From positions 24,518 to 88,517 of the forward strand of contig NZ_JAVJSQ010000018.1 in the NCBI RefSeq assembly GCF_040219335.1: a stretch of 64,000 nt of DNA. The letters are read 5' to 3'. The notes under the pieces were generated by a model, which was not told where the DNA came from, searched no databases, and saw only the letters and a program-made list of their open reading frames with translations. Shown here piece by piece: positions 48,674 to 64,000 of the stretch. Within the stretch, counting starts at the first letter, position 1. Each line of letters opens with the position of its first letter. The position numbers and the translations under genes were made by a program. This DNA comes from Gimesia sp. GTDB lineage: Bacteria > Planctomycetota > Planctomycetia > Planctomycetales > Planctomycetaceae.

Positions 48674-48707
48674 TTTTACTGGTCAATGTACCATCAAAGG
48701 AGAAAAA

Positions 48708-49115: not shown

Positions 49116-49163
49116 GATCCGCGAGCAGAGAAAAGCGGAATCACAGTCGATTAGCAGCCAGGT

Positions 49164-49187
49164 AACCCGCCCGAATTCAAGCGGGTT
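49164..49187 (+). terminator. Hairpin after the His-rich lipoprotein gene
   Basis: aacccgc / gcgggtt stem followed by gcctgttctgtttt. Confidence 0.45.
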
Positions 49188-49617
49188 GCCTGTTCTGTTT
49201 TACGCTGTCGCACTGCTGATCTGTTCCTTGATGACTGGCTGCCAGAATGCCGCTTCAGATCCGTCTTACTCCAGTTTGCCTGAGGTTACTGATTCGAATT
49301 TTCAACAGTCGGTCCTGGAGGAGGATCAGCCAGTGCTGGTGGAATTCTGGGCTCCCTGGTGCCGCCCCTGTATCGAGATGATCCCCCTCCTGGAAGAGGT
49401 GTCAGAACAATTTGCGGGACGCGTGAAGATTCTCAGAATGCGCATCGACGAGAACCCGGCTACTGCTGCCAAATATGAAATCGACGCGCCCCCCGCGTTC
49501 CTTCTCTTTAACGAGGGGAAGGTCTTCAATCGCCGACTCGGGAAACAAACACAAGCACAACTGACGAGACTCATAGAGAAAGTCTGCGCAGAAACTGCCT
49601 CGACTACTGAAAAATGA
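49186..49617 (+). CDS. Thioredoxin (possibly lipoprotein-anchored)
   Basis: VLVEFWAPWCRPC active site. The TTG at 49186 would give a lipoprotein-like leader PVLFYAVALLICSLMTGC. An alternative ATG at 49231 would give a cytoplasmic form. Confidence 0.8.
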   Translation: MPVLFYAVALLICSLMTGCQNAASDPSYSSLPEVTDSNFQQSVLEEDQPVLVEFWAPWCRPCIEMIPLLEEVSEQFAGRVKILRMRIDENPATAAKYEIDAPPAFLLFNEGKVFNRRLGKQTQAQLTRLIEKVCAETASTTEK

Positions 49618-49773
49618 TTCACCTGGCAGCAATTCCCGGATCACAACAGCTGAGGAACAATAAAAATGTCGAAAACGACTTTGTTTTAGACACGGGTCAC
49701 CGCAGTGGTTACGGTCAAAAATAATCTATGCCTGGAATGGTTTCAGGTTGCTCCAGATGGGAAATCTCGGTTT

Positions 49774-51969
49774 ATGAGTCAGGAAACAAACGAACTTGTC
49801 TTCAAAATCCAGGATATGGATTGTGCCGAGGAAGTCACCATTTTAAAAAAGGTAATCGGTCCCCTGGTGGGAGGTGAAGAACACCTGTTCTTTGATATCC
49901 TTAATCGCAGGATGACGATCACCTCCAACGAGCAGACGGTTTCCCGGGACGAAATCATCGTCGCCGTTAAGCAGACCGGCATGCGGGCTGAGCCCTGGGA
50001 TGCTGAGAAAAAAACAGACTCTGCTTCCTTCTGGTCGCGTCACGGAAGAACCGTGGTTACCAGTCTCAGTGGTGCCATGCTGGGCACCGCATTCCTGACA
50101 CACGTATTTCTAGCAGACAGCTTCGGAGCCGCCCTGGGAGCGGAAGAAGCCGCCAAAGGGATAATTCCACTACCGGTCCGCATTCAGTATCTGGTGGCAA
50201 TCGTCACCGGAATCTGGTTCGTGCTGCCCAAAGCCTGGTTCGCTCTGAAACGTTTACGCCCCGACATGAATCTGCTGATGTGCGTGGCGGTGATCGGTGC
50301 ACTGCTCATTGATGAGTGGTTTGAAGCTGCTGCGGTGGCATTCCTGTTCGCTCTTTCTCAACTGCTCGAAGCCTGGAGTGTCGGCAGGGCACGCAGGGCG
50401 GTCGCCGCACTCATGGATCTCTCCCCCACTATTGCCCATGTGCGTGATGCAGACGGAAATGAAAATACAGTCCCGGCGGAATCCGTCTCGGTCGGTACCA
50501 CATTTCTGATTCGTCCCGGTGAAAAAGTTCCACTGGATGGCACAGTGCTCAAAGGCACTAGTGAAGTCAATCAGGCACCGATCACTGGTGAATCGGTGCC
50601 CGTCGATAAACAGGCAGCAGACGAACTGTTTGCTGGCACGATCAATGGAGATGGACTCCTTGAAGCTGAATGTACCAAGCCGGCGGAAAATACAGTCCTG
50701 GCACAGATTATCCGTATGGTGGGAGAAGCCCAGTCCCGCCGCTCTCCTTCTGAACTCTGGGTGGAGAAATTCGCCAGAGTCTACACGCCCATCGTGATGG
50801 CACTCGCGCTGCTGGTTCTCCTCGGCCTCCCAGTGCTCCTTCAGGTCAGCTGGCACAATGCCATGTATCGTGCTCTGCTGCTGCTGGTCATCGCCTGCCC
50901 CTGTGCTTTGGTGATATCCACTCCGGTCAGTATCGTCGCTGCCCTGGCGGCAGCCGCCCGCAACGGTGTGCTTATCAAAGGAGGCGTGTTTGTGGAAACG
51001 CCCTCCCGTCTGCGGGCACTCGCATTAGACAAAACCGGAACACTAACTCGGGGGAAGCCGGTCGTCACGAAAATCGTTCCCCTCAATGGCCATGCCGAAT
51101 CGGAACTGTTGGAACGGGCAGCCGCCCTGGAATCGCACAGTAATCATCCCCTCGCGCTGGCCATCCTGGAAGCGGCGGAGGAACAGCAGATCGTATATGA
51201 AATGGCCGACAACTATCAGATCATCCAGGGAAAAGGAGCCACCGGGACTTTGAAAGGCCGAGAGTTCTGGCTGGGATCACATCGCTACCTGGAAGAACGG
51301 ATCGAAGATACTTCCGCAGTCCACGAGCAGCTGGAAGTTCTCTCCAATAGCGGTCAGACCGTGGTGGTAGTTGGAGATGAATCGCATGTCTGCGGCTTCA
51401 TCGCCTTAGCAGATCGCGTGCGGGAGACTTCAGCTGAAGTCATTCGCGAGCTGCACGCATCCGGAATCGAAGAGCTCGTCATGCTCACTGGAGACAACCA
51501 GGGTACCGCCCGCGCCGTTGCTGACGAAGTCGGCATGGATCAGGTATATGCAGAGCTGTTGCCGGAAGACAAGCTCCGCATCATTGAAACACTCGTCGAT
51601 GATTACGAGCATGTCGCCATGGTGGGAGACGGTGTCAACGATGCCCCGGCGATGGGACGCTCCAGCCTGGGCATTGCCATGGGAGCCGCAGGCAGTGATG
51701 TCGCCATCGAATCGGCAGACATCGCCCTGATGACCGATGACCTGACAAAAATCCCGTGGCTGATCGGTCATTCCCATAAGGCTCTGGGCATTATACGTCA
51801 GAACATCATCTTCGCTCTGAGCATCAAGGTCCTGTTCGTGATTCTGATGGTCTTGAACCACGCCTCGCTCTGGGCCGCCATCGCCGCCGACATGGGCGCG
51901 TCCCTGCTTGTCATTTTCAACGGCCTGCGACTGCTTCAGCTTCCCGCAGAAAACAAACAGTCCAACTGA
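49774..51969 (+). CDS. Heavy-metal translocating P1B-type ATPase (Zn/Cd/Pb-type CPC pump)
   Basis: HMA-like N-terminus, ACPCALVISTP, DKTGTLT, GDGVNDAPA. ATG at 49774 chosen. Confidence 0.9.
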   Translation: MSQETNELVFKIQDMDCAEEVTILKKVIGPLVGGEEHLFFDILNRRMTITSNEQTVSRDEIIVAVKQTGMRAEPWDAEKKTDSASFWSRHGRTVVTSLSGAMLGTAFLTHVFLADSFGAALGAEEAAKGIIPLPVRIQYLVAIVTGIWFVLPKAWFALKRLRPDMNLLMCVAVIGALLIDEWFEAAAVAFLFALSQLLEAWSVGRARRAVAALMDLSPTIAHVRDADGNENTVPAESVSVGTTFLIRPGEKVPLDGTVLKGTSEVNQAPITGESVPVDKQAADELFAGTINGDGLLEAECTKPAENTVLAQIIRMVGEAQSRRSPSELWVEKFARVYTPIVMALALLVLLGLPVLLQVSWHNAMYRALLLLVIACPCALVISTPVSIVAALAAAARNGVLIKGGVFVETPSRLRALALDKTGTLTRGKPVVTKIVPLNGHAESELLERAAALESHSNHPLALAILEAAEEQQIVYEMADNYQIIQGKGATGTLKGREFWLGSHRYLEERIEDTSAVHEQLEVLSNSGQTVVVVGDESHVCGFIALADRVRETSAEVIRELHASGIEELVMLTGDNQGTARAVADEVGMDQVYAELLPEDKLRIIETLVDDYEHVAMVGDGVNDAPAMGRSSLGIAMGAAGSDVAIESADIALMTDDLTKIPWLIGHSHKALGIIRQNIIFALSIKVLFVILMVLNHASLWAAIAADMGASLLVIFNGLRLLQLPAENKQSN

Positions 51970-52240
51970 ATTCCGGTCTCCTGTCAGTGGGGGTGGTTGC
52001 TGCGACTGGTAAAGCTTCCATCCGGTGTCTCTTTACTGGTAATCGCGTTAGAAATCTGATCGAGCTGTTTGCGATAGATCTCATCAGCAAAGCCAGCGTC
52101 TGAATATGTCGTTGCTACGATCTCTGCGGCTGCAGTCAGAAAGTCACAGGGGAAAAGTTCCCCTTGCAGGTCATATGCTCACGGAGAATCTCTCCTGATC
52201 GAGAGCGGTATGGTTGCAGCATCTTAGCAGTTGGTCTATT

Positions 52241-52260
52241 ATATTCGAAATATCGAATAT
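52241..52260. promoter_or_regulatory. Candidate ArsR/SmtB operator palindrome
   Basis: ATATTCGA-aata-TCGAATAT perfect inverted repeat 30 nt upstream of the arsR-like ATG. A third half-site-like cgaata is at 52262-52267. Confidence 0.5.
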
Positions 52261-52290
52261 GCGAATACTGACTAATTAAACAGGGACGCC

Positions 52291-52680
52291 ATGCTGGAAA
52301 CACAGGCAGCAGCAGAAGTATTAAAGGCCTTTTCCCATCCCACAAGACTGTCCATCCTGCAGGAACTGCTGGCAGGTCCTAAATGTGTAACGGACATGGA
52401 AGAGCTGTTACCGGCACGACAGGCAAACATCTCACAGCATCTGGGTGTGCTGCGGCATGCAAAGCTGGTTGATTATGCCCAGGACGGCGCACTCCGCTGC
52501 TATTATCTGTCTCGTCCTCGACTGGTCAAAGACATGTTGGCGTTAGTCGGCCGAGACGAGCCTATCGTAAAACGGACACCTGAAGAAATTCAGGCCCATA
52601 AATCGCGACTGGAAAAAGCCCGCCAGCGGGAAAAAAGTGCAAAGTCCTCAGGAAACACTCGTCAGCAGGCGACACAATGA
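52291..52680 (+). CDS. ArsR/SmtB-family metalloregulator
   Basis: FSHPTRLSILQELLAGPKCVTDMEELLPARQANISQHLGVLRHAKLV winged HTH. Confidence 0.9.
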   Translation: MLETQAAAEVLKAFSHPTRLSILQELLAGPKCVTDMEELLPARQANISQHLGVLRHAKLVDYAQDGALRCYYLSRPRLVKDMLALVGRDEPIVKRTPEEIQAHKSRLEKARQREKSAKSSGNTRQQATQ

Positions 52681-53819
52681 AAGAGCAGATCTATCTGGAT
52701 TTCAACGCAACGACACCCCTGGCAGATCAGGTTGCCGAGGCGATGAAGCCATATCTGCGCGAGGCACACGGTAATCCATCCAGCCTGCATTGGGCAGGTT
52801 TCCCGGCTCGTGATGCGATTGAAAAAGCCCGTTCACAGGTCGCGTCGCTGTTAAGCTGTGATGCGACGGAAATTGTGTTTACTTCCGGCGGAAGTGAGGC
52901 TAATAACCAGGCGTTGAAAGGAATCTATTTCGCGAGAAATTCTGATATTTCAGCTCCTCACTTTATAACCAGTCAGATCGAACATCCAGCGATACTTGAG
53001 CCCTGCCATTTTCTGCAGTCATTGGGGGCTGAGCTGACCTGTGTACCCGTTGACGGTCAGGGGCTGGTCGATCCGGTCGACGTACGACGGGCGATCCGAA
53101 AAAACACGGTTCTGATTTCAGTCATGCACGCGAACAATGAAGTCGGCACAATCCAGCCGATTGAAGAGATTGCAGCAATCGCCAGGGAAAATGGAATCCC
53201 CTGTCACACAGACGCCGCTCAGTCAGTCGGAAAGATTCCGGTCGACGTGGATGCACTGGGCGTCGATTTGCTGACTGTTGCTGGACACAAGCTCTATGGG
53301 CCCAAGGGAGTGGGAGCGTTGTATGTAAGCGAAGGGTTAGAGCTGGAGCCACTCATGCATGGAGCAGGGCATGAAGCCGGTCGCCGAGCCGGGACAGAAA
53401 ATATTCTGGAGATCGTCGGACTGGGAACTGCCTGCGATCTCGCCCGGCAGGCCCTGGAGCAAACACAGAGCAGGGAACTCCGCGATGATTTCTGGCAGAA
53501 GCTGAAGTCCGCATTCGGTGATAATGTTGTGCTGAATGGCCATCCGGAACTCCATTTGCCGAACACACTCAACGTCAGTTTCCCTGGTCATATCGGGGGA
53601 GAAATATTAGCTCGACTCCCCTGGCTGGCAGCATCCACAGGTTCAGCCTGTCACGCAGGGAGCGTGGAGATCAGCCCGGTACTGGCAGCGATGGGAGTCT
53701 CACAAGAGATCGGTCTGGGGGCCGTCCGATTCAGCCTGGGACGCACTACCACTCAAGCCGAAATTGATCAAGTCCTGGAAGGGCTGATCCAGATCATGGC
53801 CAAGAGTGCAGAACAATAA
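52677..53819 (+). CDS. Cysteine desulfurase (NifS/IscS, class V aminotransferase)
   Basis: IYLDFNATTP, GGSEANN, PLP-Lys region AGHKLYGPKG, catalytic loop STGSACHAG. The start overlaps the arsR-like stop (ATGA). Confidence 0.9.
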   Translation: MKEQIYLDFNATTPLADQVAEAMKPYLREAHGNPSSLHWAGFPARDAIEKARSQVASLLSCDATEIVFTSGGSEANNQALKGIYFARNSDISAPHFITSQIEHPAILEPCHFLQSLGAELTCVPVDGQGLVDPVDVRRAIRKNTVLISVMHANNEVGTIQPIEEIAAIARENGIPCHTDAAQSVGKIPVDVDALGVDLLTVAGHKLYGPKGVGALYVSEGLELEPLMHGAGHEAGRRAGTENILEIVGLGTACDLARQALEQTQSRELRDDFWQKLKSAFGDNVVLNGHPELHLPNTLNVSFPGHIGGEILARLPWLAASTGSACHAGSVEISPVLAAMGVSQEIGLGAVRFSLGRTTTQAEIDQVLEGLIQIMAKSAEQ

Positions 53820-53859
53820 GATTTAGACCTGTATTTACCATAATGAATAAGAAAGGATA

Positions 53860-54270
53860 ATGAATTCAATGAATGCTATGAAACCGTTACAGCTGGCTCT
53901 GTTCACCGCAGGATTACTCGTGAACACATTGAGCGGCGCAGAGCCTACCGATGATTCGCTGGCGACAGTCAAAAAAAATGTAGAGAAGGACAAAGCGGTC
54001 CTCGTGGACGTGCGTGAGAAGGGGGAGTGGGACAATGGTCACATCGCAGGTGCGACCTTTCTTCCACTTAGTGAATTGCGTAATGGAATCTCTAAATCTG
54101 CATTAGCAAAGAGGATTTCCAAAGATCAGATCATCTATACGCATTGTGCCGTCGGGATTCGCTCCTGCAGAGCAGCGGACTACCTGTTGAAACACGGCTA
54201 CGACGTGCGTCCACTCAAACCTGGCTATAAGGATCTGGTTGCGGCCGGATTTAAGAAGGCCAAAGAATAA
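53860..54270 (+). CDS. Rhodanese-domain sulfurtransferase, secreted
   Basis: Signal peptide, VLVDVREKGEWDNGHIAGA, active-site loop HCAVGIRS. Confidence 0.85.
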   Translation: MNSMNAMKPLQLALFTAGLLVNTLSGAEPTDDSLATVKKNVEKDKAVLVDVREKGEWDNGHIAGATFLPLSELRNGISKSALAKRISKDQIIYTHCAVGIRSCRAADYLLKHGYDVRPLKPGYKDLVAAGFKKAKE

Positions 54271-54302
54271 CCGGTCTGATAAATCTATTCGAGGAGACTG
54301 TC

Positions 54303-54656
54303 ATGGCAAGCTATCTGGTCATTCTCAATGGACCACCCTATGGCAACGAGCATTCTTACAATGGTCTCCGGCTTGCCGGCAGTCTCGTTCGGAAGGCGGG
54401 AAACGAGGTGAAAGTCTTTCTCCTGGGAGATGCTGCAGCGTGTGCCAGGTCAGGTCAGAAAGTCCCGCAGGGATACTACAATCTGGAACTCATGTTGCAG
54501 CAGTTTCATAAGCATGGGGGAGAGGTAGGTGTCTGTGCATCCTGCATGGATGCACGGGCCGTCACCGAGGATGAACTCATCAAAGGTTGTCAGCGCAGCA
54601 GTCTGGACGAACTTACGAACTGGACCATGGACGCCGACAAGGTACTCGTTTTCTAA
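54303..54656 (+). CDS. DsrE/DsrF-family sulfur-relay-like protein
   Basis: YLVILNGPPYGNEHSYNGLRLAGSL...VKVFLLGDAA...VCASCMDARA. Confidence 0.75.
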   Translation: MASYLVILNGPPYGNEHSYNGLRLAGSLVRKAGNEVKVFLLGDAAACARSGQKVPQGYYNLELMLQQFHKHGGEVGVCASCMDARAVTEDELIKGCQRSSLDELTNWTMDADKVLVF

Positions 54657-54735
54657 GTCAGCACAATCTATTTTTGACAGCCTCTCTCCCGAAATTCGCA
54701 ACTCACCGGAATTCTTTTTCTCAGCGAGTCAACTA

Positions 54736-55671
54736 ATGGATAATGTAGAGCCTACAACAGTGGTCATCGTCAGACTGGCCTGTTTCCTGTCGATCCTGAT
54801 CGGGATGGCGGTCTGGGAGCTGTTTGTACCTCGACGAAAGTTGGTGGCTGGCAAGCCCTGGCGCTGGACCAGTAATCTCAGCCTGGTGGTACTGAATGGA
54901 ACGCTGGTTCGAATCTTCATTCCAGTTACGGCTGTCGCGGCAGCAATGTATGCTGGTGACCATGAATACGGTCTGTTTTACATCGTCGACTGGCCGTTCT
55001 GGCTGGAGGTCTTGCTGGCCCTGATTGCCTTCGGCCTGGCAATCTATCTTCAGCATGTGATGTTCCACGCCGTGCCCCTGTTCTGGCGTCTGCACATGGC
55101 ACATCATGCGGACCTGGACTTTGATGTGACCACCGGACTGCGATTTCATACCCTGGAAATTCTGCTCTCATCCCTGATTAAATTGTCCGTAGTGCTGGTA
55201 CTCGGCCCACCCGTCATTGCGGTCGTTGCCTTTGAAATTCTGCTGAACGCAACCAGCATGTTCAACCACAGTAATATAAAATTACCGAAACAGTTTGATC
55301 GGTTATTGAGGTGGTTCGTCGTCACTCCCGACATGCATCGGGTGCACCACTCGGTCATCCACCGAGAGACAAACAGTAACTTCGGTTTTAATCTGCCGTG
55401 GTGGGATTACCTTTTAGGAACCTACCGTCCGCAACCGCAAGAGGGCCATGAACTGATGGAAGTCGGCGTGACGACTTTCACCGATGAACGGCAGGTTGAC
55501 CGCCTGCCAGGCATGTTGCTGCTGCCCTTTCACCGTGGTACATCAGGTCTGTTGCACACAGACAAGGCGGGACACAGTCAACCAACTGGTGACAGGAATC
55601 CGGAACGTGGTTTGTCGGATGACAATTCTAGAGGAGCCCTTGATGATAAGGAGATAAGAAGCGTTTCCTGA
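54736..55671 (+). CDS. Fatty-acid hydroxylase/sterol-desaturase-family membrane protein
   Basis: His boxes HVMFH, HMAHH and HRVHH within a 4-TM body. Start trimmed to ATG at 54736 to remove the overlap with the DsrE-like gene. Confidence 0.8.
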   Translation: MDNVEPTTVVIVRLACFLSILIGMAVWELFVPRRKLVAGKPWRWTSNLSLVVLNGTLVRIFIPVTAVAAAMYAGDHEYGLFYIVDWPFWLEVLLALIAFGLAIYLQHVMFHAVPLFWRLHMAHHADLDFDVTTGLRFHTLEILLSSLIKLSVVLVLGPPVIAVVAFEILLNATSMFNHSNIKLPKQFDRLLRWFVVTPDMHRVHHSVIHRETNSNFGFNLPWWDYLLGTYRPQPQEGHELMEVGVTTFTDERQVDRLPGMLLLPFHRGTSGLLHTDKAGHSQPTGDRNPERGLSDDNSRGALDDKEIRSVS

Positions 55672-56001
55672 CAGGCACTATACCACGGTCCCACAGGATA
55701 TGCTGAATGAGGCTGTATTATGGTTGGGTGATGAGCTTGGTGTAAAAGATATTTTTAATGAGCAGAAGAAATCTGTTGGGTAGAGCCAAAGGAGGCTACG
55801 AAACTGTCCGCAGCCTCACGATATATCGGCTTGATTCGCTCGTTTTTCTCGGGGAGCGAGGCAGGGCCGGCAAAGAGGGAATCAGACCACTTGCCACATG
55901 GGCGGCGCAGTCCAACTCCGGCAGGTGTGGCATCCCCCCACCAGTTAAGATGCGTGGCTTACAGGATCTGGGCAAATTTATGTAAGTGGATTGCAAAAAG
56001 A

Positions 56002-56051
56002 CACCTTGCTTTGGGAGCAAGAGGTCGCACGTTCGAATCGTGTCGCCCCGA
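56002..56051 (+). tRNA. tRNA-Pro(UGG) 3' fragment (anticodon arm to discriminator; 5' acceptor strand and D-arm absent)
   Basis: Anticodon arm cttgc-tttggga-gcaag (anticodon TGG, U33, G37), variable aggtc, T-arm gcacg-ttcgaat-cgtgt, then acceptor 3' strand cgccccg + a. No cggggcg or D-arm in the 100 nt upstream. Confidence 0.7.
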
Positions 56052-56093
56052 CTTTTAAACCCTTTCTGATAATGGGTTTATGGAATCGGAAAA

Positions 56094-56125
56094 TGGTCCA
56101 CTACCTACTGATCGGTAGTGGTCCA
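56094..56125. other. Stem-loop related in sequence to the 34275-34302 hairpin
   Basis: tggtccactacc / ggtagtggtcca (one mismatch). aaatgg(t)ccact(t)acc is shared with 34271-34285. Confidence 0.55.
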
Positions 56126-56538
56126 GTACGTGGTCCGTTATTCTGTGATTTTCTGTGTAAGATTACACCCTCTGAGACGCCCAGAATCGCTTCTCTAGCT
56201 CCTCGATCCCAACCGTAGGCATTCTCTCGCATTCTGCCCCTAAAACGCTCCTGAAGGCCTCTCAGGAGGCACATCGGTGATGAGCACCTCTGACGCCAGA
56301 AAAGATTTGACTGTCTGGTCACAGTAGGCGAAATTGAACATGTCTGTTCAGTGCGTATATTCTTAAATGCCCTGGACTCAGTTTTTAGTGCACTCTGCGC
56401 GATCGTAATTGCGCGTGATTTTCAGAGAATGATGGGATGAATCGCTAAGGGTCGGTCAGTTGTAACTGTATATCATGTTTGTTACTGTTATACGTCTGCA
56501 TACGTGTGTTCCCCACCATTTCAAAATAACTTAGGTAA

Positions 56539-56756
56539 ATGTCACCAACAGATGAGTATCTGTTGGTGGAATAGGTTGCGGAGCTGCTGGGAGTTTCGGC
56601 GAATACCAAACAGGCGTGGGCTGCTTCCGCAAAACTGCAGGAATATCGCCTCCGGTCAACAACTACTGACTCCTCAATAAGACAGATTTTGAAAAACTGG
56701 AGACTCAGGTCACCAATCCTCGACCAGTCAGGTCACAAGAACGAAAAGCAAAGTAG
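56539..56756 (+). pseudogene. Decayed excisionase/MerR-type HTH gene
   Basis: MSPTDEYLLVE*VAELLGVSANTKQAWAASAKLQEYR has an in-frame TAG at 56572. After a frameshift it continues as PVNNY*LLNKTDFEKLETQV. This is the usual pattern of small helix-turn-helix excisionase-family proteins. Confidence 0.6.
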
Positions 56757-56760
56757 CCAC

Positions 56761-59700
56761 ATGGTCCGATTGGAAGAAATCACGAAGGACGCGACCGTTA
56801 AAGGCATTCTCGCCAATGCGGCTGTGAAGATCATCGACGCGAAGCTGATCGGCTCAAATGCGTTGAAGGTTGTCTACGAAGCACCCGATGGGGCGACTGA
56901 TCAAGAAATCCTGTACCGTGATCGCGAGCCAACATTGGAACTTGTTGAATCTGGTCGACCGTGGAGCTTCACTGGGGATGGCAATCTCTTTCGTCTCGCC
57001 TCCGAGGCGTTGCGTATCCAGCTTGCGTATCTTTTTGACCCGGTGCTAGCGGTTCACTCTTCACTGGTCGAACCGTTACCGCATCAGATTACCGCGGTTT
57101 ATGAAGAGATGCTAACGCGGCAGCCTCTGCGTTTTTTGCTTGCCGATGATCCTGGAGCAGGAAAGACGATCATGGCCGGCCTACTGATCAAAGAGCTGAT
57201 CGTTCGCGGCGACCTCAAACGCTGTATGATCGTTGCACCGGGGAATCTAGTCGAGCAATGGCAAGACGAACTCAGCGACAAGTTCCAACTACCTTTCGAA
57301 ATCATGACTAACGACAAGTTCGAGTCGGCCTACAGCGGCAACTGGTTTTTGGAAAACGACTTGGTTATTTGCCGCCTCGACAAGCTTAGCCGAAATGAGT
57401 CAATTCAGGACAAACTAAAGGTTACGGACTGGGATCTGATTGTCGTTGACGAAGCTCATAAGATGTCCGCTTCTCTATTTGGTGGTGAGGTTAAGGAAAC
57501 CAAACGGCACAAGCTCGGGTTACTCCTACGAGAATTGACAAGGCACTTCCTGCTGATGTCCGCCACTCCTCACAACGGCAAGGAAGAAGATTTTCAGTTG
57601 TTTATGCGGCTACTCGACAGTGATCGTTTCGAAGGTTCATACGATCCAGCACGTCACAGTTGTGACGCCAGCGACATGATGCGGAGGATGGTGAAAGAAG
57701 ATCTGCTGAAGTTCGACGAAACACGACTATTCCCGGAACGAAAAGCTTATACTGTCGATTACAAGTTGAGCGATACCGAAGAAACCCTGTATGCGGAAGT
57801 GACAGAGTATGTTCGCAAGGAGTTTGACCGTGCGAAGGCTCTTGAAAATGATGGGCGAAAAGGAACGGTCGGCTTTGCGTTGACGATTCTTCAAAGACGT
57901 CTCGCATCGTCACCTGAAGCAATCTTCCAGTCGCTGCGCCGTCGGCGCGAGCGTCTCGAAAGTCGTCGCGAGGAGGTTAAGTTGCTGAAACGCGGAGGGG
58001 CGGCACAGATCGATTTTGATAAGAGTCTGCCATTACTCGAATCAGACGATGACGTTGAAGATTTCGAGGATCGACCAGGAGAAGAATTCGAGGATGCAGA
58101 GGAGAACATCCTCGATCAGGCGACCGCAGCGCAAACCATCTCTGAACTCGAATTGGAAATTGAACGACTCAAAGAGCTGGAAAATTTAGCAGGTGCCGTT
58201 CGCAGCAGCGGGAAAGATAAGAAGTGGGAGCAATTATCCTCGCTGCTTCAAGAAAATGAGCACATGTTTGATGAGCATGGGAATCGTCGTAAGCTAGTAA
58301 TTTTCACTGAACATCGTGACACACTAGGCTATCTGCAAGATCGAATCACGAATTTGTTGGGAATACCGGAAGCTGTGGTAACGATCAGCGGCGGCATGCT
58401 GCGCGAATATCGCAAGGATGCTCAGGATCGATTCACACAAGACAAAGAAACGTTGGTCATGATCGCCACAGATGCTGCTGGGGAAGGTATCAACCTGCAG
58501 CAAGCACACTTAATGGTCAACTACGACCTGCCGTGGAACCCGAACCGACTGGAGCAGCGATTCGGACGAATCCACCGTATAGGACAAACTAAGGTTTGCC
58601 ATCTTTGGAATCTTGTTGCCGGTGACACTCGCGAAGGTGATGTCTTTCGTAGACTACTCGAAAAGCTCGATGTAGAGCGCGACGCGTTAGGTGGAGCCGT
58701 CTTCGATGTACTCGGAAAGGCTATCGAGGGTCGTCGGCTACGTGACCTTCTCCAGGAAGCAATTCTGTATGGCAACCAGCCGGATGTCAAAGCCAAGCTG
58801 AAGGAAAAGGTCGAAGGCGCACTAGATCATGCTCGTTTGCGGGAACTGATCGAGGACCGCTCACTGGAACATGAGTCGATGGACACTTCGCGAGTGCGAG
58901 AAATTCGAGCCAAGATGGAACGCGCGAACGCGAGGCGATTGCAGCCTTACTTCATCGCTTCGTTCTTCCGCGACGCGTTTGCGCATCTAGGCGGAAAGCT
59001 AAAGGAGCGAGAGAACAAGAGGTTTGAAATCTCGCACGTGCCAGCGGATATTCGCAACCGGGACCGGCAAATTGGAACTCGCAATAAAGTGCAACGAAAG
59101 TACGAACGGATCACGTTCGACAAGTCTCTCATCAATGTCGAAGGTCAGCGGCAGGCCGCCTTCGTCTGTCCAGGACATCCGCTACTCGACACCTGCATCG
59201 ACCTGATCTTGGAGAGATACCGCGATCTGCTTAAGCAAGGTGCGATTCTCATCGATGAAACTAATTCATCCGAGGATGTTAGCGCCTTGTTCTACCTTGA
59301 GCACACGATTCAGGATGGTCGGATAACAGGAAACGGTGTTCGTCGTGCCGTCAGCCGTCAGTTACAGTTCGTAGCAATCGATCGCCAAGACAATGTCCAT
59401 TCTGCCGGATATGCGCCATACCTTGATTACCGACCGGCGACAGAAGAGGAGGGCAACGCTATCCAGCCGCTTCTCGACGAGGAATGGCTGACGCGAGATA
59501 TGGAAGAGCTGGCGATTGAGTACGCCATCTCCGAACTTGTTCCTCGCCATGTCCGGGAAATGCGTGGACAAAAAGACGCGCTGATCGACAAAACAAAGCG
59601 GGCCGTCACTGAACGGCTCACAAAGGAATACATGCACTGGGATAACCGGGCGCAGCAACTAAAAGCTCAAGAAGAAGCGGGTAAGACTCCTAGGCTGAAT

Positions 59701-60270
59701 TCTCGAAGGGCCGAGCAACGAGCCGATGACTTGCAGGCACGGCTGAAGAAACGACTGGATGAACTGGAACAAGAAAAGCAACTTTCTCCTAAAGCTCCAA
59801 TAGTCGTGGGGGGAGCTCTAGTCGTTTCGGCTGAAAAGCTGCGAAAGCTTAGCGGCTTGCCAGAGATATCGGAAACGATTCAAACCCGCGAAACGAAACG
59901 AGTCGAGGGAGTCGCTATGAAAGCGGTCATGGATGCTGAAGCAGCATTAGGCCACTCCCCGCATGATATCAGCAAGGATAACCGCGGTTACGACATTGAA
60001 TCCGTCGATGGACAAACCGGGCGATTGCGGTTCATAGAAGTGAAGGGGCGTGTTGTTGGGGCCGACACAGTGACGATCACGCGCAACGAAATTGTCACTG
60101 GAATTAACTCCTCAACGAGTTTCATTCTGGCAATCGTCCAGGTTGATGGCGAGAAGGCGTTACCCCCTCTCTATGTGCGAACTCCGTTTGAACGCGAACC
60201 TGACTTTGATATCACAAGCGTTAACTATAAGCTGAATGAGATGCTTCAGCGGGGAGCCCCACCCGCATGA
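56761..60270 (+). CDS. SNF2-family helicase fused to a C-terminal DUF3883 (PD-(D/E)xK nuclease-fold) domain
   Basis: Motif I [10 protein letters not shown], motif II [9 protein letters not shown], helicase-C [23 protein letters not shown], a coiled-coil linker, and C-terminal NRGYDIES...RLRFIEVKG...ITRNE. ATG at 56761 chosen; the ORF is open from 56689. Confidence 0.85.
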   Translation: [1169 protein letters not shown]

Positions 60271-60284
60271 GTGGAGTCCAATAA

Positions 60285-63200
60285 ATGATGCACGAGTCAA
60301 AAAGCGGATCACCGCCGGATTACTTCTATGGCATCCGTGACAAAGCACGCGGTCGTTGGGAACAGCTGGAAGCCGATCCGGAGCTGGCCGCTCCTTGGCA
60401 CCAGCTGTTCAAACAAGTGCAGAGTCCACGCCACATTGTCTCAGAATTACTTCAGAACGCTGATGATGCCGGGGCAACGGAAGCCGATGTAAAAATCGTC
60501 GATGGAAAGTTTGTCTTTTGCCACAATGGTAACGACTTCACAAACGACGAATTCGCCTCACTCTGTCGCTTTGGCTACTCCAATAAGCGGAGTCTCCACA
60601 CGATTGGTTTTCGGGGAATTGGCTTCAAGAGTATATTCAGCCTGGGAGACGAAGTTCAGCTTCGCACACCAACGCTTTCGGTATCATTTTTTCGTGAACG
60701 GTTCTCCGAACCTGTGTGGATCAATGATGACCCAACCCTTGATACACAGGTCAGTGTCACGATCAAAGATCAATTTCGTCAAAAGGAAATAGAAAAAAAT
60801 CTCGCTGACTGGTTGGCAAGTCCGGCGTCGCTGCTGTTCTTTGATTCCATTAGGCGGCTGCGTGTTGGTGACCATGAAGTTCGCTGGGATTCTGCCGGTG
60901 ACGGACCAGTACAGGGTTCGATATGGATGACGTGTTCGGCGGAGCCGGATAGGAAGTACCTTCTAATTCGCTCCCAGAATGAACCATTTCCTCCCGAGGC
61001 CGTCGAGGAAATCCGACAGGAGAGGATGATTTCCTCGGATGATGATGCAGCGTTTCCGCCCTGTCGCGTCGAGATTGTTCTCGGAATGGAAGGTCGGTTG
61101 TTCGTAATTCTGCCGACCGGTGTAAAAACCGAATTGCCGTTCGCTTGCAATGCGCCCTTCATTCAAGACCCAGCACGTGTAAAGATCAAAGACCCGGAGA
61201 TTTCGCCGACGAACCGATGGCTATTGAAGCGTGCCGGCGAACTCGCCGCTCAGTCAATGCTACAGTGGCTGAGTCGGAGTGATCTTCCAGCGTCGGATCG
61301 CTGCCAGGCGTATAAACTTCTTTCAGACGTGGACCGAGAAGATAGCACGATTGAGGGCTGTTGTGGGACAATTGTGGAAGAGGCCCTTGGCGATGTGATT
61401 GAGGACCGAGAAGTCTTGTTGACCGAAAATGAAACGATTGTCCAATCCGATCATTGCGTTGACGTCCCTAGCCGGTTGCTCTCGATTTGGACGGTGGAGC
61501 AGGTGTCTGCGTTCTTTGACCAGACTTCACGGCCGTTGCTTTCCCGCCACATTGCAGAAGATGACCGCAAAAAGTTGATGAATTGGAATCTCGTCAAAGA
61601 GATAGACAAGCATCACATTCTGAACGTGCTCAAAAACAAGCATCTTCCTCGTCCTGAATCTTGGCGGCAATTACTGTTGCTATGGGCATACGTCTCCTAT
61701 TACGTCTGCAAGTCTAACTACAATTGGAAGTCTTGGCGTAGTATTCGTATAGTACCCGTTCAAAGTAAAGATGTCCTCTACTCGGCTGATGAAGTTGTGC
61801 GGCTGGGCAAGAAGAGGCTTTTGCATTCGGAAGATGACTGGGGTTTTCTGTCACAATATCTGCTCGTTATTAATCAGAACTGGCCACGTTATCTTGCTGA
61901 GCAACGTCGCAAGGCTGATGAAGAGAAAGACGAAAGCCTGCTATCAGCCTGGGAAAAAGCACAGCGTGTTCTAGAAGCTCTCGATCTCGACGACTCCAGT
62001 GACGTGAGTCGAGTCGTCGCGGCTGTATCCGAAAAGGCGTTCGCAAACGACAAATACCCGATCGAAGATTGCATTCGAATCGCGCAGATTGCTGCGAAGC
62101 TCGGTGCGACGGTCACGGATCAGTTTCAGTTCGTCACTCAGGATGAGCTGCGAACAACGGTCGCTAAGACCATCCTAGTCGATCTTGACGGGCAGCTTGA
62201 TCTGTTTGTTGATGAACAGTGGTATGAGTGGCATGTCCTAAATGACGATTATAGTCAGTACTTTGTCTCTTGCTCCCAGCTTGAATGGGAGCAGTGGGTT
62301 GCAAGCAGCAAAAGTAAACTGCTCGGCTTTGTTCCACTGGAGAACTTTGTGCAGAAAGTCTATAGCCGCAGCAAGCTCAAAGCTCTTCTGAGGCAGCGGG
62401 GAATCACAACCGAGCCTGGGTACCAATACGTAACGCACGATTTCATCGTTGAAGATTGGGATTTCAACGAGTCCCACTGGAATGGATGGGAGCAGTCAGC
62501 CAGCCAGGATTCGACATACTGGTCAAAACTGTTGTTGCGGATTCTCAGGAATCCAGATTTATACTCGGGTAAAGCGACTTCAGCCAAGGTTCAGCAGATT
62601 GCAACCACAGGCAGACGGCGATCCATCATCCACGAGCCTGTCCCCTCGACCTGGCTGACTCGCTTCAGAGACCTGCCGTGCCTGATTGATACTCGTGGCC
62701 AGTGTCATAAGCCTGCTGAATTACTGCGTCGTACTCCGGATACGGAACCGTTACTCGACGTCGAGTTGTTCGTAAGAGCGGAAGATGACAATGAGCACAC
62801 TCGTCCACTGCTCAAGCTGTTGGGTGTCGGCGACTCGCCTCCCGGCCCCGATCGGCTTCTGGACCGACTGCGTGCGCTGGCAGGTGAGGATGATGTTCCC
62901 GTCTACGAACTCGAAAAGTGGTATCACCGGCTCGATCAGCTTTTTCAGAAGTGCTCGACGGCCGAATCGATAACAGTTAGGGATGCTTTTACCAGCGATT
63001 CATTGATTCTTTCACAGGACGGGAACTGGTACAGCAAAGCCGAAGTTTTTCTGAACTCCGCGGAAGACGATGTACCGGATGTGCCGCTGGTACATCCATC
63101 AGTTCGACACTTGACGCTGTGGCAGAAGATCGGTGTGGCAGAGCGACCAACCGCCGATCTCGCCATTGAATGGCTTAAGGAACTCCCCTCAGGAAACAAG

Positions 63201-64000
63201 CTGAGTGCGGATGAGCTACGACGAGTTCGCAACTTATTACCGCGATTCCCGCTGAAGATTTGGGAAGAGTGCGGGCACTGGTTGAGCCTTGACGGGATTT
63301 GGGTAGATGTTAAGTCCCTGAAATACTCGCTGACGATGCAGTCGCTCGTTGCGTGGAGACATCTTTTTCAACCAGTGAAACAAAACACGGCCGACCTGCA
63401 ACGGCTGGATGCGGAAATGTGCCAGCAGCCGCCATTCAGCGAGTTGCCTACCTTATCCAGTAGAATCGAAGACCGGTGTTTTGAAGGCTTGTTTGATCTG
63501 GAGGTACCCGTCGCAAAACCGTGGATGCTGTCTCTGGGAAATGGGATCGCCCGGATCGAACTTGACGAGCCCGAATATCAAGAGACTGTCCGCCGGCTTG
63601 GATCTCGGTTGGCCAGCTCGCTCTGGCAGGTCACATCTGGGCTCGAATCGGTGCCATATATTGATGGCACTCCTGCCGGTACCGCTCGCCCAATTCAAGT
63701 CCTGTGGAAGGATGACCGTCTGTATGTCGACGATCGACCCTTAGCTCAGTTATTCAAGGCAATCACTCAGGAACTGTCCCGCATGTTTGACCGCGGGGAC
63801 ATCGGTGACGCAATCCGAGCGTGCGTGGAACGAAGCCCCGATTTTATCCAGGACTATCTCGAGGAAAATTTTCGGTTATCACCTCCGGATTCCGACAAAA
63901 CCACCGAGGCTGAGGACGCTGCCTATCATGCATCATCCGGTGAGCAGCTCACAGATTCCGATCTGGAAAATTACCATAACACAGTGGAGGACATCGATCT
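60285..64000 (+). CDS. Very large sacsin/NO VEIN-type GHKL ATPase protein, partial (open past the right edge)
   Basis: I translated the frame by eye from ATG 60285 to 64000 (more than 1238 codons) and found no stop. N-terminus SELLQNADDAGATEADV (GHKL N-box) and TIGFRGIGFKSIFSLGD (G-motif). Starts 14 nt after the helicase stop. Absent from the ORF track because it has no stop in the window. Confidence 0.8.
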   Translation, partial: MMHESKSGSPPDYFYGIRDKARGRWEQLEADPELAAPWHQLFKQVQSPRHIVSELLQNADDAGATEADVKIVDGKFVFCHNGNDFTNDEFASLCRFGYSNKRSLHTIGFRGIGFKSIFSLGDEVQLRTPTLSVSFFRERFSEPVWINDDPTLDTQVSVTIKDQFRQKEIEKNLADWLASPASLLFFDSIRRLRVGDHEVRWDSAGDGPVQGSIWMTCSAEPDRKYLLIRSQNEPFPPEAVEEIRQERMISSDDDAAFPPCRVEIVLGMEGRLFVILPTGVKTELPFACNAPFIQDPARVKIKDPEISPTNRWLLKRAGELAAQSMLQWLSRSDLPASDRCQAYKLLSDVDREDSTIEGCCGTIVEEALGDVIEDREVLLTENETIVQSDHCVDVPSRLLSIWTVEQVSAFFDQTSRPLLSRHIAEDDRKKLMNWNLVKEIDKHHILNVLKNKHLPRPESWRQLLLLWAYVSYYVCKSNYNWKSWRSIRIVPVQSKDVLYSADEVVRLGKKRLLHSEDDWGFLSQYLLVINQNWPRYLAEQRRKADEEKDESLLSAWEKAQRVLEALDLDDSSDVSRVVAAVSEKAFANDKYPIEDCIRIAQIAAKLGATVTDQFQFVTQDELRTTVAKTILVDLDGQLDLFVDEQWYEWHVLNDDYSQYFVSCSQLEWEQWVASSKSKLLGFVPLENFVQKVYSRSKLKALLRQRGITTEPGYQYVTHDFIVEDWDFNESHWNGWEQSASQDSTYWSKLLLRILRNPDLYSGKATSAKVQQIATTGRRRSIIHEPVPSTWLTRFRDLPCLIDTRGQCHKPAELLRRTPDTEPLLDVELFVRAEDDNEHTRPLLKLLGVGDSPPGPDRLLDRLRALAGEDDVPVYELEKWYHRLDQLFQKCSTAESITVRDAFTSDSLILSQDGNWYSKAEVFLNSAEDDVPDVPLVHPSVRHLTLWQKIGVAERPTADLAIEWLKELPSGNKLSADELRRVRNLLPRFPLKIWEECGHWLSLDGIWVDVKSLKYSLTMQSLVAWRHLFQPVKQNTADLQRLDAEMCQQPPFSELPTLSSRIEDRCFEGLFDLEVPVAKPWMLSLGNGIARIELDEPEYQETVRRLGSRLASSLWQVTSGLESVPYIDGTPAGTARPIQVLWKDDRLYVDDRPLAQLFKAITQELSRMFDRGDIGDAIRACVERSPDFIQDYLEENFRLSPPDSDKTTEAEDAAYHASSGEQLTDSDLENYHNTVEDID

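What the first reader, a model, noticed from the sequence alone, without database searches (positions are those of the whole stretch)
56761..64000. SNF2 helicase-DUF3883 nuclease plus giant sacsin-type GHKL ATPase: candidate uncharacterised defence module
Seen in sequence:
- The first ORF is about 1170 aa. It has SNF2 motifs ([38 protein letters not shown]) and a C-terminal D..E.K restriction-endonuclease-fold domain (GYDIES...FIEVKG).
- Fourteen nt later a second ORF begins. It stays open for at least 1238 codons to the window edge.
- The second ORF opens with a GHKL ATPase head (ELLQNADDAGATE, GFRGIGFKS) of the sacsin / HATPase_c_3 type.
- The rest of that protein (about 1000 aa seen) has no motif I recognise.

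Established knowledge:
- Translocase + nuclease + GHKL/MORC-like ATPase combinations recur in anti-phage and restriction-like loci.
- SNF2 helicases occur in DISARM (DrmD). Helicase-nuclease fusions occur in Zorya (ZorD).
- None of the partner genes of those systems is present upstream. I see no methyltransferase, DUF1998, PLD or ZorABC, so this does not match a named system I know.

Context supports horizontally acquired accessory DNA: the pair sits right after a truncated tRNA-Pro and a decayed excisionase gene.
Basis: partly seen in the sequence, partly recalled or inferred. Interest (0 to 1): 0.85.

Follow-up and report, generated by a model that had tools for sequence, protein, structure and literature searches.

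The report
Hma defence helicase with GHKL partner
The first gene is HmaA, the tested helicase-nuclease of the known Hma (type-1 BREX-related) anti-phage system, and the giant sacsin-type ATPase after it is a conserved partner gene that the Hma papers I could search do not mention.

Summary
ORF1 (56761-60270, 1169 aa) and ORF2 (60285 to the window edge; 1442 aa in an identical contig) exist with the stated motifs.

The "unnamed system" reading is only partly right.
- ORF1 is a full-length HmaA (PADLOC 1658 bits), the SNF2 + NOV_C nickase of the Hma system. That system has since been renamed the type-1 BREX-related system, and a Halomonas HmaA alone protects E. coli against T4.
- The "missing" methyltransferase lies downstream in relatives. 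In 57 of 65 related loci with enough flank, HmaB (DUF1156 methylase) and HmaC (HEPN-DUF499 ATPase) follow ORF2.

ORF2 is the new part.
- It belongs to a uniform family of about 1400 aa found in many bacterial phyla and in archaea.
- In 78 of 80 loci it sits with hmaA, usually directly after it, and in 48 loci with a 4-nt ATGA overlap.
- Seven loci keep the pair without HmaB or HmaC.
- Only its first ~480-540 residues resemble Tiamat TmtA. Its C-terminal domain weakly resembles a restriction-endonuclease fold.
- About 5% of Hma-bearing plasmids carry it, and none of the Hma or BREX-related papers I searched mentions it.

In this genome the locus looks eroded: the upstream HTH gene is a pseudogene, and a 30-bp direct repeat truncates the next gene.

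Verdict: a new variant of a known kind.

The parts
55979..56052 (+). 3' fragment of a tRNA-Pro(UGG) gene; probable old integration-site remnant
   Evidence: Rfam tRNA match at 55979-56043, 22.1 bits, which is below the gathering score of 29. ARAGORN finds no tRNA in the window. The sequence was read directly.
56133..56162 (+). Left copy of a 30-bp direct repeat (GTCCGTTATTCTGTGATTTTCTGTGTAAGA). The right copy lies 37 nt after the ORF2 stop, at window-equivalent 64650-64679.
   Evidence: There is one match in the window against 0 expected by chance. L001 has two copies, at 17-46 and 8534-8563. The right copy truncates a Schlafen-like gene after 12 codons.
56541..56757 (+). Pseudogene of a small HTH_17 (MerR/excisionase-type) protein. 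This gene precedes hmaA intact in a close relative.
   Evidence: Compared with the intact 72-aa gene at L088 822-1040, it has a TAG at codon 12, a 1-nt deletion and a TGA.
56761..60270 (+). hmaA: SNF2 translocase fused to a PD-(D/E)XK (NOV_C/DUF3883) nuclease, 1169 aa
   Evidence: PADLOC HmaA PDLC00659 scores 1658 bits over residues 1-1166. Pfam domains.
57070..57828 (+). HmaA SNF2/ResIII ATPase lobe (residues 104-356), with DDPGAGKT and the DEAH box
   Evidence: Pfam SNF2-rel_dom, ResIII and DEAD matches.
58243..58584 (+). HmaA Helicase_C lobe (residues 495-608), including motif VI [11 protein letters not shown]
   Evidence: Pfam Helicase_C, 76.7 bits.
59905..60159 (+). HmaA NOV_C/DUF3883 nuclease domain (residues 1049-1133), with D..E.K (GYDIES, FIEVKG)
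   Evidence: Pfam NOV_C scores 68.3 bits. The equivalent residues D1084, E1104, K1106 and E1121 are needed for defence and nicking in Halomonas HmaA (PMC11232893).
60285..64000 (+). ORF2: giant sacsin-type GHKL ATPase. Residues 1-1238 of 1442 are in the window; the stop codon is at window-equivalent 64611-64613.
   Evidence: Translations. The identical contig is L001. The exact protein, P0001, is named 'ATPase [Gimesia sp.]'.
60420..60668 (+). ORF2 GHKL/Bergerat ATP-binding head (residues 46-128). Conserved features are the N-box E54/N58/D61 and the G-rich GFRGIGFKS motif.
   Evidence: NCBIfam NF047352 scores 75.5 bits and Pfam SACS 35.3 bits. The head matches PDB MORC3 5ix1 at E 2.5e-4. These residues are invariant in the 15-sequence alignment.
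60369..61901 (+). ORF2 N-terminal module shared with Tiamat TmtA (residues ~29-539)
   Evidence: PADLOC TmtA PDLC03968 matches at E 1.4e-54 over residues 46-539, covering profile positions 73-566 of 1486. hhalign against a bona fide TmtA-like protein covers residues 29-476 only, with probability 99%.
61902..63890 (+). ORF2 middle region (residues ~540-1202): conserved alpha/beta domains with no recognisable relatives
   Evidence: The AlphaFold2 model of residues 321-1238 has mean pLDDT 83.8. Foldseek against the PDB gives nothing better than E 0.49. Pfam finds nothing.

Best explanation
What it is:
- The region holds the first two genes of an extended Hma (type-1 BREX-related, DUF499-centred) restriction-modification-like anti-phage system from a Gimesia-type planctomycete.
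- HmaA is the effector. It is an SNF2 motor that moves on DNA and carries a PD-(D/E)XK nickase. This has been shown for a Halomonas homologue.
- ORF2 is a ~1440-aa sacsin-type GHKL ATPase that is co-expressed with HmaA.

How it probably works (inferred):
- ORF2 acts as an ATP-driven dimerising clamp or licensing subunit for HmaA. The model is the way MutL and the MORC/paraMORC ATPases work with helicases and nucleases.
- It would bind DNA or a phage cue through its large middle region and its C-terminal restriction-endonuclease-like domain, and so control where or when HmaA cuts.
- In relatives, HmaB (an N6-adenine methylase) marks self DNA, and HmaC (HEPN-DUF499 ATPase) senses or scaffolds.

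State of this copy:
- In this genome the locus is partly eroded, and HmaB/HmaC may not follow directly.

Shown: gene identities, co-conservation, gene overlap and domain content. Inferred: physical interaction and the clamp/licensing role.
For: HmaA identity:
- PADLOC HmaA scores 1658 bits over the full length.
- The Pfam architecture is SNF2 + Helicase_C + NOV_C.
- Published work shows defence and nickase activity for a Halomonas homologue (PMC11232893).

ORF2 is tied to HmaA:
- An HmaA lies in 78 of 80 species-level loci found with the ORF2 family. These span many bacterial phyla and two archaea.
- HmaA is directly upstream in 64 of those loci. In 48 there is a 4-nt ATGA stop/start overlap and in 7 a 1-nt overlap.
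- When other cassettes are embedded (PDC-M38, PDC-S06, Schlafen-like), they usually lie after ORF2, between ORF2 and HmaB.
- Seven loci keep HmaA-ORF2 with no HmaB or HmaC within 10 kb.
- Pairwise divergence of HmaA and ORF2 is correlated, Pearson 0.73.

The rest of the system in relatives:
- Downstream genes are HmaB (1008 bits) and HmaC (1161 bits).
- The closest relatives, with HmaA 86-87% identical, have HmaA-ORF2-Schlafen-like-HmaB-HmaC.

ORF2 as a GHKL ATPase:
- The GHKL head has an invariant N-box and G-rich loop.
- Operons combining a GHKL ATPase, an SF2 helicase, a nuclease and a methylase were proposed in 2008 to loop and manipulate DNA (PMC2292703).
Against: - No experiment or interaction prediction links ORF2 to HmaA.
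- HmaA works alone in E. coli (PMC11232893).
- Close HmaA homologues exist without ORF2. Gloeocapsa plasmid HmaA is 61% identical and has other genes in that slot.
- Only 4 plasmids carry ORF2, against 75 that carry a full-length HmaA-like gene. ORF2 is therefore dispensable for Hma as a whole.
- ORF2 co-diverges with HmaA less tightly than HmaC does (0.73 against 0.97).
- The canonical GHKL DxGxG aspartate is an invariant histidine (H80), so ATP hydrolysis is not assured.
- What follows ORF2 in this genome is unknown beyond a truncated gene and a repeat.
Confidence: 0.6

Rival explanations
1. ORF2 is an autonomous, Tiamat-like single-gene defence system. It merely occupies the well-known 'embedding slot' between hmaA and hmaB, as Septu, PARIS and other systems do, and works independently of HmaA.
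For: - 63% of Hma systems carry embedded genes, and many of these are independent defences (bioRxiv 10.1101/2024.01.29.577857).
- ORF2 residues 29-539 are homologous to TmtA.
- Its layout is a GHKL head, a long middle region and a C-terminal domain with weak PD-(D/E)XK-fold hits (2w8m E 9e-3, Hjc, SPARDA). This parallels a real TmtA-like protein with a SACS head and a C-terminal HNH domain.
- Close HmaA homologues lack ORF2.
Against: - Embedded autonomous systems are normally found mostly outside their hosts. ORF2-family genes were found with an hmaA in 78 of 80 loci, with one unassessable and one possible exception.
- The conserved 4-nt overlap with the hmaA stop codon points to coupled expression.
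- Other embedded cassettes usually sit after ORF2, not between hmaA and ORF2.
- The pair persists where HmaB and HmaC are absent.
- The C-terminal domain lacks a well-conserved catalytic lysine; K1362 is conserved in only 60-90% of sequences.
Confidence: 0.28
2. In this particular genome the locus is a decaying remnant that no longer functions as a defence system.
For: - The upstream HTH_17 gene is a pseudogene with three lesions.
- The Schlafen-like gene after ORF2 is cut after 12 codons at a 30-bp repeat, and the same repeat lies upstream of the cassette.
- HmaB and HmaC are not seen.
Against: - Both long ORFs (1169 and 1442 codons) are intact.
- All catalytic motifs are present.
- HmaA alone is sufficient for defence in E. 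coli (PMC11232893).
- Seven other genomes hold HmaA-ORF2 pairs without HmaB or HmaC.
Confidence: 0.1
3. ORF2 is a housekeeping sacsin/Hsp90-like chaperone that happens to lie next to a helicase gene.
For: The only curated family hits are to sacsin-type ATP-binding domains.
Against: - It has a patchy, horizontally spread distribution on plasmids, next to integrases and other defence genes.
- It is strictly linked to hmaA.
- It has no DnaJ or HEPN chaperone-type partner domains.
Confidence: 0.02

Closest known systems
Hma system (HmaA-HmaB-HmaC; Payne et al. 2021), also called the type-1 BREX-related (DUF499-centred) system (Rakesh & Krishnan 2026)
   Same: - ORF1 is a full-length HmaA with SNF2, Helicase_C and NOV_C domains.
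- Relatives of this locus carry HmaB (DUF1156 N6-adenine methylase) and HmaC (HEPN_Swt1 + DUF499) in the same operon.
- Genes are embedded between hmaA and hmaB, as described for Hma.
   Different: - A ~1400-aa sacsin-type GHKL ATPase is a conserved fourth gene, fixed directly after hmaA.
- This component appears in none of the published descriptions I could search (PMC8565338, PMC11232893, PMC12839542, PMC3710099, PMC7641849, bioRxiv 2024.01.29.577857). I searched the full texts and those supplementary files that are held as text, where there were any.
- In this window HmaB and HmaC are not visible, and they may be missing.
Tiamat (TmtA; single-gene anti-phage system)
   Same: - The N-terminal ~450-500 residues (sacsin-type GHKL head plus the adjoining domain) are homologous (PADLOC E 1.4e-54; hhalign probability 99%).
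- Both are giant proteins of about 1400-1600 aa with a small C-terminal domain, which in TmtA-type proteins is a nuclease.
   Different: - ORF2 matches only a third of the TmtA profile. A real TmtA-like protein matches profile positions 27-1335.
- The middle and C-terminal parts are unrelated.
- ORF2 has no recognisable DUF3883 or HNH domain.
- ORF2 is not a stand-alone gene and is almost always next to hmaA.
MORC/paraMORC GHKL ATPases in restriction-modification operons (Iyer, Abhiman & Aravind 2008), and MutL
   Same: - A GHKL ATPase is encoded with an SF2 (including SWI2/SNF2) helicase, a restriction-endonuclease-fold nuclease and a DNA methylase.
- The GHKL head aligns with MORC3 and MutL.
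- This is the basis for the proposed clamp/DNA-looping role.
   Different: - The head is sacsin-type rather than MORC-type, with a histidine in place of the DxGxG aspartate.
- The protein is far larger.
- An S5-type transducer domain was not demonstrated here.
DISARM DrmD and Zorya ZorD
   Same: They share the SNF2 helicase core.
   Different: - NCBIfam DrmD scores 364 bits against a cut-off of 610, and ZorD 55 against 1500.
- No DrmA/B/C or ZorA/B/C genes are present.
- HmaA has the NOV_C nuclease, which DrmD and ZorD lack.

Membership tests
Hma / type-1 BREX-related system | SNF2 helicase fused to a C-terminal PD-(D/E)XK (NOV_C/DUF3883) nuclease that matches the HmaA model | tested here: met
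   PADLOC PDLC00659 scores 1658 bits over residues 1-1166 against profile positions 1-1170 of 1176. Pfam finds SNF2-rel_dom, Helicase_C and NOV_C.
Hma / type-1 BREX-related system | HmaB (DUF1156 N6-adenine methyltransferase) in the same operon | tested here: inconclusive
   The window ends inside ORF2. The identical contig L001 shows a truncated Schlafen-like gene and a repeat after ORF2. In relatives HmaB is present, scoring 1008 bits, and 57 of 65 loci with at least 8 kb downstream have both HmaB and HmaC.
Hma / type-1 BREX-related system | HmaC (DUF499 STAND/ORC-like ATPase, often with an N-terminal HEPN domain) in the same operon | tested here: inconclusive
   Not visible in the window. 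It is present in relatives, scoring 1161 bits with HEPN_Swt1 + DUF499.
Hma / type-1 BREX-related system | Protection against phage | not testable with these tools
   Shown only for Halomonas HmaA against T4 (PMC11232893).
Tiamat (TmtA) | Match along most of a TmtA profile | tested here: not met
   ORF2 covers profile positions 73-566 of 1486 only. A control TmtA-like protein from Halorubrum covers positions 27-1335 at 567 bits. hhalign homology stops at ORF2 residue 476.
Tiamat (TmtA) | Stand-alone single-gene system | tested here: not met
   ORF2-family genes lie with an hmaA in 78 of 80 loci.
Tiamat (TmtA) | Recognisable C-terminal nuclease (DUF3883 or HNH) | tested here: inconclusive
   No Pfam hit. 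hhalign against NOV_C is negative. The AlphaFold model (pLDDT ~97) gives only weak Foldseek hits to PD-(D/E)XK nucleases, best E 9e-3. The putative catalytic lysine is not well conserved.
GHKL (Bergerat-fold) ATPase, sacsin type | N-box (ExxxNxxD) and glycine-rich ATP-lid motifs, with a match to the sacsin-type models | tested here: met
   NCBIfam NF047352 scores 75.5 bits (cut-off 50) and Pfam SACS 35.3 (cut-off 32.8). E54, N58, D61 and GFRGIGFKS are invariant.
GHKL (Bergerat-fold) ATPase, sacsin type | Canonical DxGxG motif, whose aspartate contacts adenine | tested here: not met
   The aligned position is an invariant His80 in HNGNDF, opposite MORC3 DNGNG. From memory, this is usual for sacsin-type heads. 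ATP hydrolysis is therefore unproven.
DISARM (DrmD) | DrmD equivalog score, plus DrmA/DrmB/DrmC partner genes | tested here: not met
   NCBIfam DISARM_DrmD scores 363.6 bits against a cut-off of 610. No partner genes are in the window or in related loci.
Zorya (ZorD) | ZorD equivalog score, plus ZorABC partner genes | tested here: not met
   NCBIfam ZorD scores 55 bits against a cut-off of 1500. No partner genes were found.

The most novel reading that the evidence does not exclude
HmaA and the sacsin-type GHKL ATPase form an obligate two-protein machine.
- An ATP-gated GHKL clamp would license an SNF2 translocase-nickase.
- This machine could act without HmaB or HmaC, as in the seven pair-only loci and perhaps in this genome.
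- It would be the split-gene counterpart of the Tiamat and plant NO VEIN architecture, in which a sacsin-type GHKL head and a DUF3883 nuclease sit in one protein. The NO VEIN head is recalled from memory, not tested here.
- If true, this would give the first mechanistic handle on what sacsin-type GHKL modules do on nucleic acids.
Probability: 0.3. Interest if true: 0.7.

Novelty: new variant of a known kind. Interest (0 to 1): 0.5.

Why it matters
- A conserved, overlap-coupled fourth subunit in a subset of these systems gives a natural experiment on how the HmaA nuclease is controlled.
- It links Hma to Tiamat, another defence of unknown mechanism, through a shared N-terminal GHKL module.
- Annotation pipelines currently label this gene only as 'ATPase' or as a partial TmtA match, so four-gene Hma loci are probably being mis-scored.
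- The pair-only loci suggest that a minimal two-gene system may exist.

Tried and rejected
Attempts to see beyond the window:
- A megablast of 56000-64000 against all complete E. coli genomes found nothing. The window is from a Gimesia-type planctomycete, because P0001 is 100% identical.
- The 113-kb NCBI contig is not retrievable. Look-ups of P0001 returned only the 8.5-kb contig L001, and P0002 (Gimesia panareensis, 85% identical) is not on record.

Structure and homology searches:
- A Foldseek search of the ORF2 321-1238 model against the PDB gave no meaningful match, best E 0.49.
- The C-terminal model against viral structures added nothing.
- I tested whether the ORF2 C-terminal domain is a diverged NOV_C. 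hhalign gave probability 0.3%, so I rejected this.
- The search of 1.84 billion representative proteins returned only ORF2-family members in its top 150. It gave the family size but no distant architectures.

Apparent fusion:
- The apparent HmaA-ORF2 fusion in L065 (2575 aa) is a 2-nt difference in a metagenome-assembled genome that also contains an N. I treated it as a probable artefact and did not use it as Rosetta-stone evidence.

Literature:
- Searches for a sacsin, GHKL or HATPase_c_3 component of Hma or BREX-related systems found nothing, in the main texts or in the held supplements.
- Some supplements were truncated when stored and one paper has none held, so this absence is not proof.

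Alternative system assignments:
- DISARM and Zorya membership were considered and rejected on curated score cut-offs and missing partner genes.

Full report
**1.

ORF1 runs from the ATG at 56761 to the TGA at 60268-60270, giving 1169 aa. Pfam finds SNF2-rel_dom, ResIII/DEAD, Helicase_C and NOV_C (DUF3883), all above the curated cut-offs.

After a 14-nt spacer containing GGAG, ORF2 starts at 60285 and stays open for 1238 codons to the window edge. A Logan contig identical in sequence (L001) shows that the complete ORF2 is 1442 aa. The exact protein is on record as 'ATPase [Gimesia sp.]', which identifies the source as a planctomycete.

The ORF2 head matches the NCBIfam sacsin N-terminal ATP-binding-like domain at 75.5 bits (cut-off 50) and Pfam SACS at 35.3 bits (cut-off 32.8). 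HATPase_c_3 falls below its cut-off. A family profile aligns the head with MORC3 and MutL in the PDB, with 5ix1 at E 2.5e-4.

**2. ORF1 belongs to a named and tested system**

The PADLOC model HmaA (PDLC00659) matches ORF1 end to end at 1658 bits. DrmD, BrxH, DpdE and ZorD models score far lower, and the NCBIfam DrmD and ZorD equivalogs are below their cut-offs.

The history of the Hma system (helicase HmaA, methylase HmaB, ATPase HmaC) is as follows.
- It was named in 2021 (PMC8565338).
- The same operon had been predicted to be restriction-modification-like in 2013 (PMC3710099) and again in 2020 (PMC7641849).
- In 2024 a Halomonas HmaA alone was shown to protect E. coli against T4. Protection depended on helicase motif VI and on the D/E/K residues of the NOV_C domain, which nicks supercoiled DNA (PMC11232893).
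- In 2026 the system was re-described as the 'type-1 BREX-related' system, found in 2446 taxa (PMC12839542).

The window's HmaA keeps all of these catalytic motifs.

**3. The missing partner genes lie beyond the window in relatives**

I aligned 15 ORF2 homologues and scanned one genome for each of 185,579 species. This gave 261 matches, of which 80 loci were kept. They come from many bacterial phyla, plus Methanoperedens and a Methanosarcinaceae archaeon.

Clustering the neighbouring genes shows a conserved operon of HmaA (~1170 aa), ORF2 (~1410 aa), a ~960-aa protein and a ~1100-aa protein. The last two are HmaB (PADLOC 1008 bits; DUF1156) and HmaC (1161 bits; HEPN_Swt1 + DUF499). Of 65 loci with at least 8 kb downstream of ORF2, 57 carry both.

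The closest relatives have HmaA 86-87% identical and ORF2 68-72% identical. Their gene order is [HTH_17]-HmaA-ORF2-Schlafen/AlbA_2-like-HmaB-HmaC.

**4. ORF2 is tied to HmaA, not just parked in the locus**

Hma is known to host unrelated 'embedded' defence genes between its own genes, in 63% of systems (bioRxiv 10.1101/2024.01.29.577857). I therefore asked whether ORF2 is just another guest. Several results argue against that.
- An HmaA lies in 78 of the 80 loci. One locus cannot be assessed because the contig ends, and one (L067) shows no HmaA in 10 kb upstream.
- In 64 loci HmaA is directly upstream. In 48 the hmaA stop and ORF2 start overlap as ATGA, and in 7 more they overlap by 1 nt. Independent gene calls show the same 4-nt overlap.
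- Other embedded cassettes (PDC-M38, PDC-S06, Schlafen-like) usually lie after ORF2.
- Seven loci (L003, L017, L027, L032, L035, L037, L040) have HmaA-ORF2 but no HmaB or HmaC within 10 kb, even with profile searches. One of these sits beside a pPIWI_RE module and an Eco57I-like methylase.
- Pairwise divergences of HmaA and ORF2 correlate at Pearson 0.73. For comparison, HmaA-HmaB is 0.79 and HmaA-HmaC is 0.97.

Other results show that ORF2 is optional for Hma as a whole.
- 75 plasmids carry a full-length HmaA-like gene, but only 4 carry ORF2.
- A Gloeocapsa plasmid HmaA that is 61% identical has other genes in the same slot.
- A Bradyrhizobium plasmid shows the full WYL-HmaA-(3 small genes)-ORF2-HmaB-HmaC arrangement, with ORF2 annotated merely as 'ATPase'.

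**5. What ORF2 looks like**

The family is uniform. There are 354 clusters at 50% identity with E ≤ 1e-30, nearly all 1350-1500 aa long. Conservation extends along the whole length, with mean column identity 63%.

- **Residues ~29-539.** This part is homologous to Tiamat TmtA (PADLOC E 1.4e-54), but it covers only profile positions 73-566 of 1486. As a control, a Halorubrum plasmid protein (1561 aa, SACS head, C-terminal HNH) matches the same profile over positions 27-1335 at 567 bits. hhalign between that protein and the ORF2 family stops at ORF2 residue 476. ORF2 therefore shares a module with Tiamat but is not a TmtA.
- **Residues 321-1238.** These model confidently (pLDDT 83.8) as alpha/beta domains with no PDB match.
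- **Residues ~1203-1300.** This is an acidic, low-confidence linker.
- **Residues ~1310-1430.** These form a compact domain (pLDDT ~97). Its best structural matches, all weak, are PD-(D/E)XK nucleases: D212 (2w8m, E 9e-3, probability 0.98), Hjc and the SPARDA nuclease.

In that last domain the conserved polar residues are E1312, R1327 and E1347 (in an FPWE motif), with K1362 less conserved. Catalysis is therefore uncertain. The domain is not detectably related to NOV_C.

In the GHKL head, E54, N58, D61 and GFRGIGFKS are invariant. The DxGxG aspartate, however, is an invariant histidine.

**6. State of the locus in this genome**

- A 3' fragment of tRNA-Pro(UGG) lies at 55979-56052, below the Rfam threshold.
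- The HTH_17 gene that precedes hmaA in L088 is a pseudogene here, at 56541-56757, with two stops and a frameshift.
- In L001 the gene after ORF2 begins like the Schlafen-type gene of relatives (MADVQTPELWMQ). It breaks after 12 codons at a 30-bp sequence that also occurs at 56133-56162, upstream of the cassette, with one mismatch and 0 expected by chance.
- The HmaA-ORF2 pair is therefore bracketed by a direct repeat, and whether hmaB and hmaC follow is unknown.
- Upstream of the tRNA fragment lie metal-efflux and sulfur-handling genes.

**7. Mechanism**

The roles of HmaB and HmaC below are as published, not tested here.
- **HmaA.** HmaA homologues are sufficient effectors that need both the motor and the nickase (shown for the Halomonas protein).
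- **ORF2 (inferred).** Co-expression, the GHKL head and the 2008 analysis of GHKL-helicase-nuclease-methylase operons (PMC2292703) suggest that ORF2 is an ATP-gated dimerising clamp. It would load, restrain or license HmaA on DNA. Its middle region and C-terminal restriction-endonuclease-like domain would provide DNA or trigger recognition.
- **HmaB.** It marks self DNA.
- **HmaC.** It senses or scaffolds.
- **Main rival.** ORF2 may instead be an autonomous Tiamat-like defence that prefers this slot. I put this at about 0.28 because of the N-terminal homology and the optional distribution.

**8. Novelty and verdict**

None of the Hma or BREX-related papers I could search mentions a sacsin, GHKL or HATPase_c_3 component, either in the text or in the supplements held as text. 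PADLOC-DB v2 has no model for it beyond partial TmtA hits. This absence is not proof, because some supplements were truncated and one paper has none held.

- The finding is not an unnamed system.
- It is a known system with a conserved, apparently undescribed fourth component, plus a possible minimal two-gene form.
- I rate it a new variant of a known kind, with interest 0.5.

Noticed in passing
window 56133-56162 and L001 8534-8563 (window-equivalent 64650-64679): A 30-bp direct repeat with one mismatch brackets the HmaA-ORF2 cassette. The right copy cuts a Schlafen/AlbA_2-like gene after 12 codons. This may mark a deletion, an insertion or a recombination site. The contig ends there, so its full extent is unknown.
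   Followed up: partly
window 56541-56757; L088 822-1040: The small HTH_17 (MerR/excisionase-type) gene directly upstream of hmaA is intact in a relative but carries three lesions in the window. It may be a regulator of the operon rather than an excisionase.
   Followed up: partly
window 56096-56125: A perfect hairpin (GGTCCACTACC-N8-GGTAGTGGTCC) lies between the tRNA-Pro fragment and the left repeat copy. It gave a chance-level Rfam sRNA hit (E 0.29).
   Followed up: no
window 41296-55671: An upstream block of metal and sulfur genes: outer-membrane factor, HlyD-type adaptor, AcrB-type RND pump, thioredoxin, P-type ATPase, ArsR regulator, cysteine desulfurase, rhodanese and a fatty-acid hydroxylase. 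It ends at the tRNA-Pro fragment.
   Followed up: partly
L089 5842-10527 (Halorubrum hochsteinianum plasmid, WP_008580622.1): A 1561-aa archaeal TmtA-type protein with a sacsin-type head and a C-terminal HNH nuclease instead of DUF3883. It lies next to a cytosine methyltransferase and is annotated only as 'HNH endonuclease'.
   Followed up: partly
L017 61-17121 (Dehalococcoidia MAG): A pPIWI_RE module lies directly upstream of an HmaA-ORF2 pair that lacks HmaB and HmaC. An Eco57I-like methylase follows the pair and could be a replacement methylase.
   Followed up: partly
L015 5525-6403 and 26 other alphaproteobacterial loci; L083 3220-4083: A WYL-domain protein is conserved directly upstream of hmaA in 27 loci and is likely a regulator. 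Conserved large minus-strand genes (clusters C4 and C6) and integrases flank many of these loci, which suggests a shared mobile island.
   Followed up: no
L043, L054, L058, L059, L061 (~9492-9980); L047/L048 (8497-9477); L083 7603-8968: Small genes of unknown function (163 aa and 324 aa; three genes in Bradyrhizobium, one with a faint ASCH match) are inserted between hmaA and ORF2 in some alphaproteobacteria.
   Followed up: no
L065 6479-14203: An apparent 2575-aa HmaA-ORF2 fusion in a Brevundimonas MAG. It is caused by a 2-nt difference at the ATGA junction relative to L069, and an N lies nearby, so it is probably an assembly error.
   Followed up: yes
L084, L085 (IMG/VR contigs): Two contigs classed as viral carry the complete HmaA-ORF2-HmaB-HmaC operon. 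L085 has about 4 kb inserted between ORF2 and HmaB.
   Followed up: partly
L086 22598-23788; L088 17113-18303: A 396-aa gene after hmaC in the closest relatives matches the PADLOC defence candidate PDC-M65A (E 8e-56).
   Followed up: no
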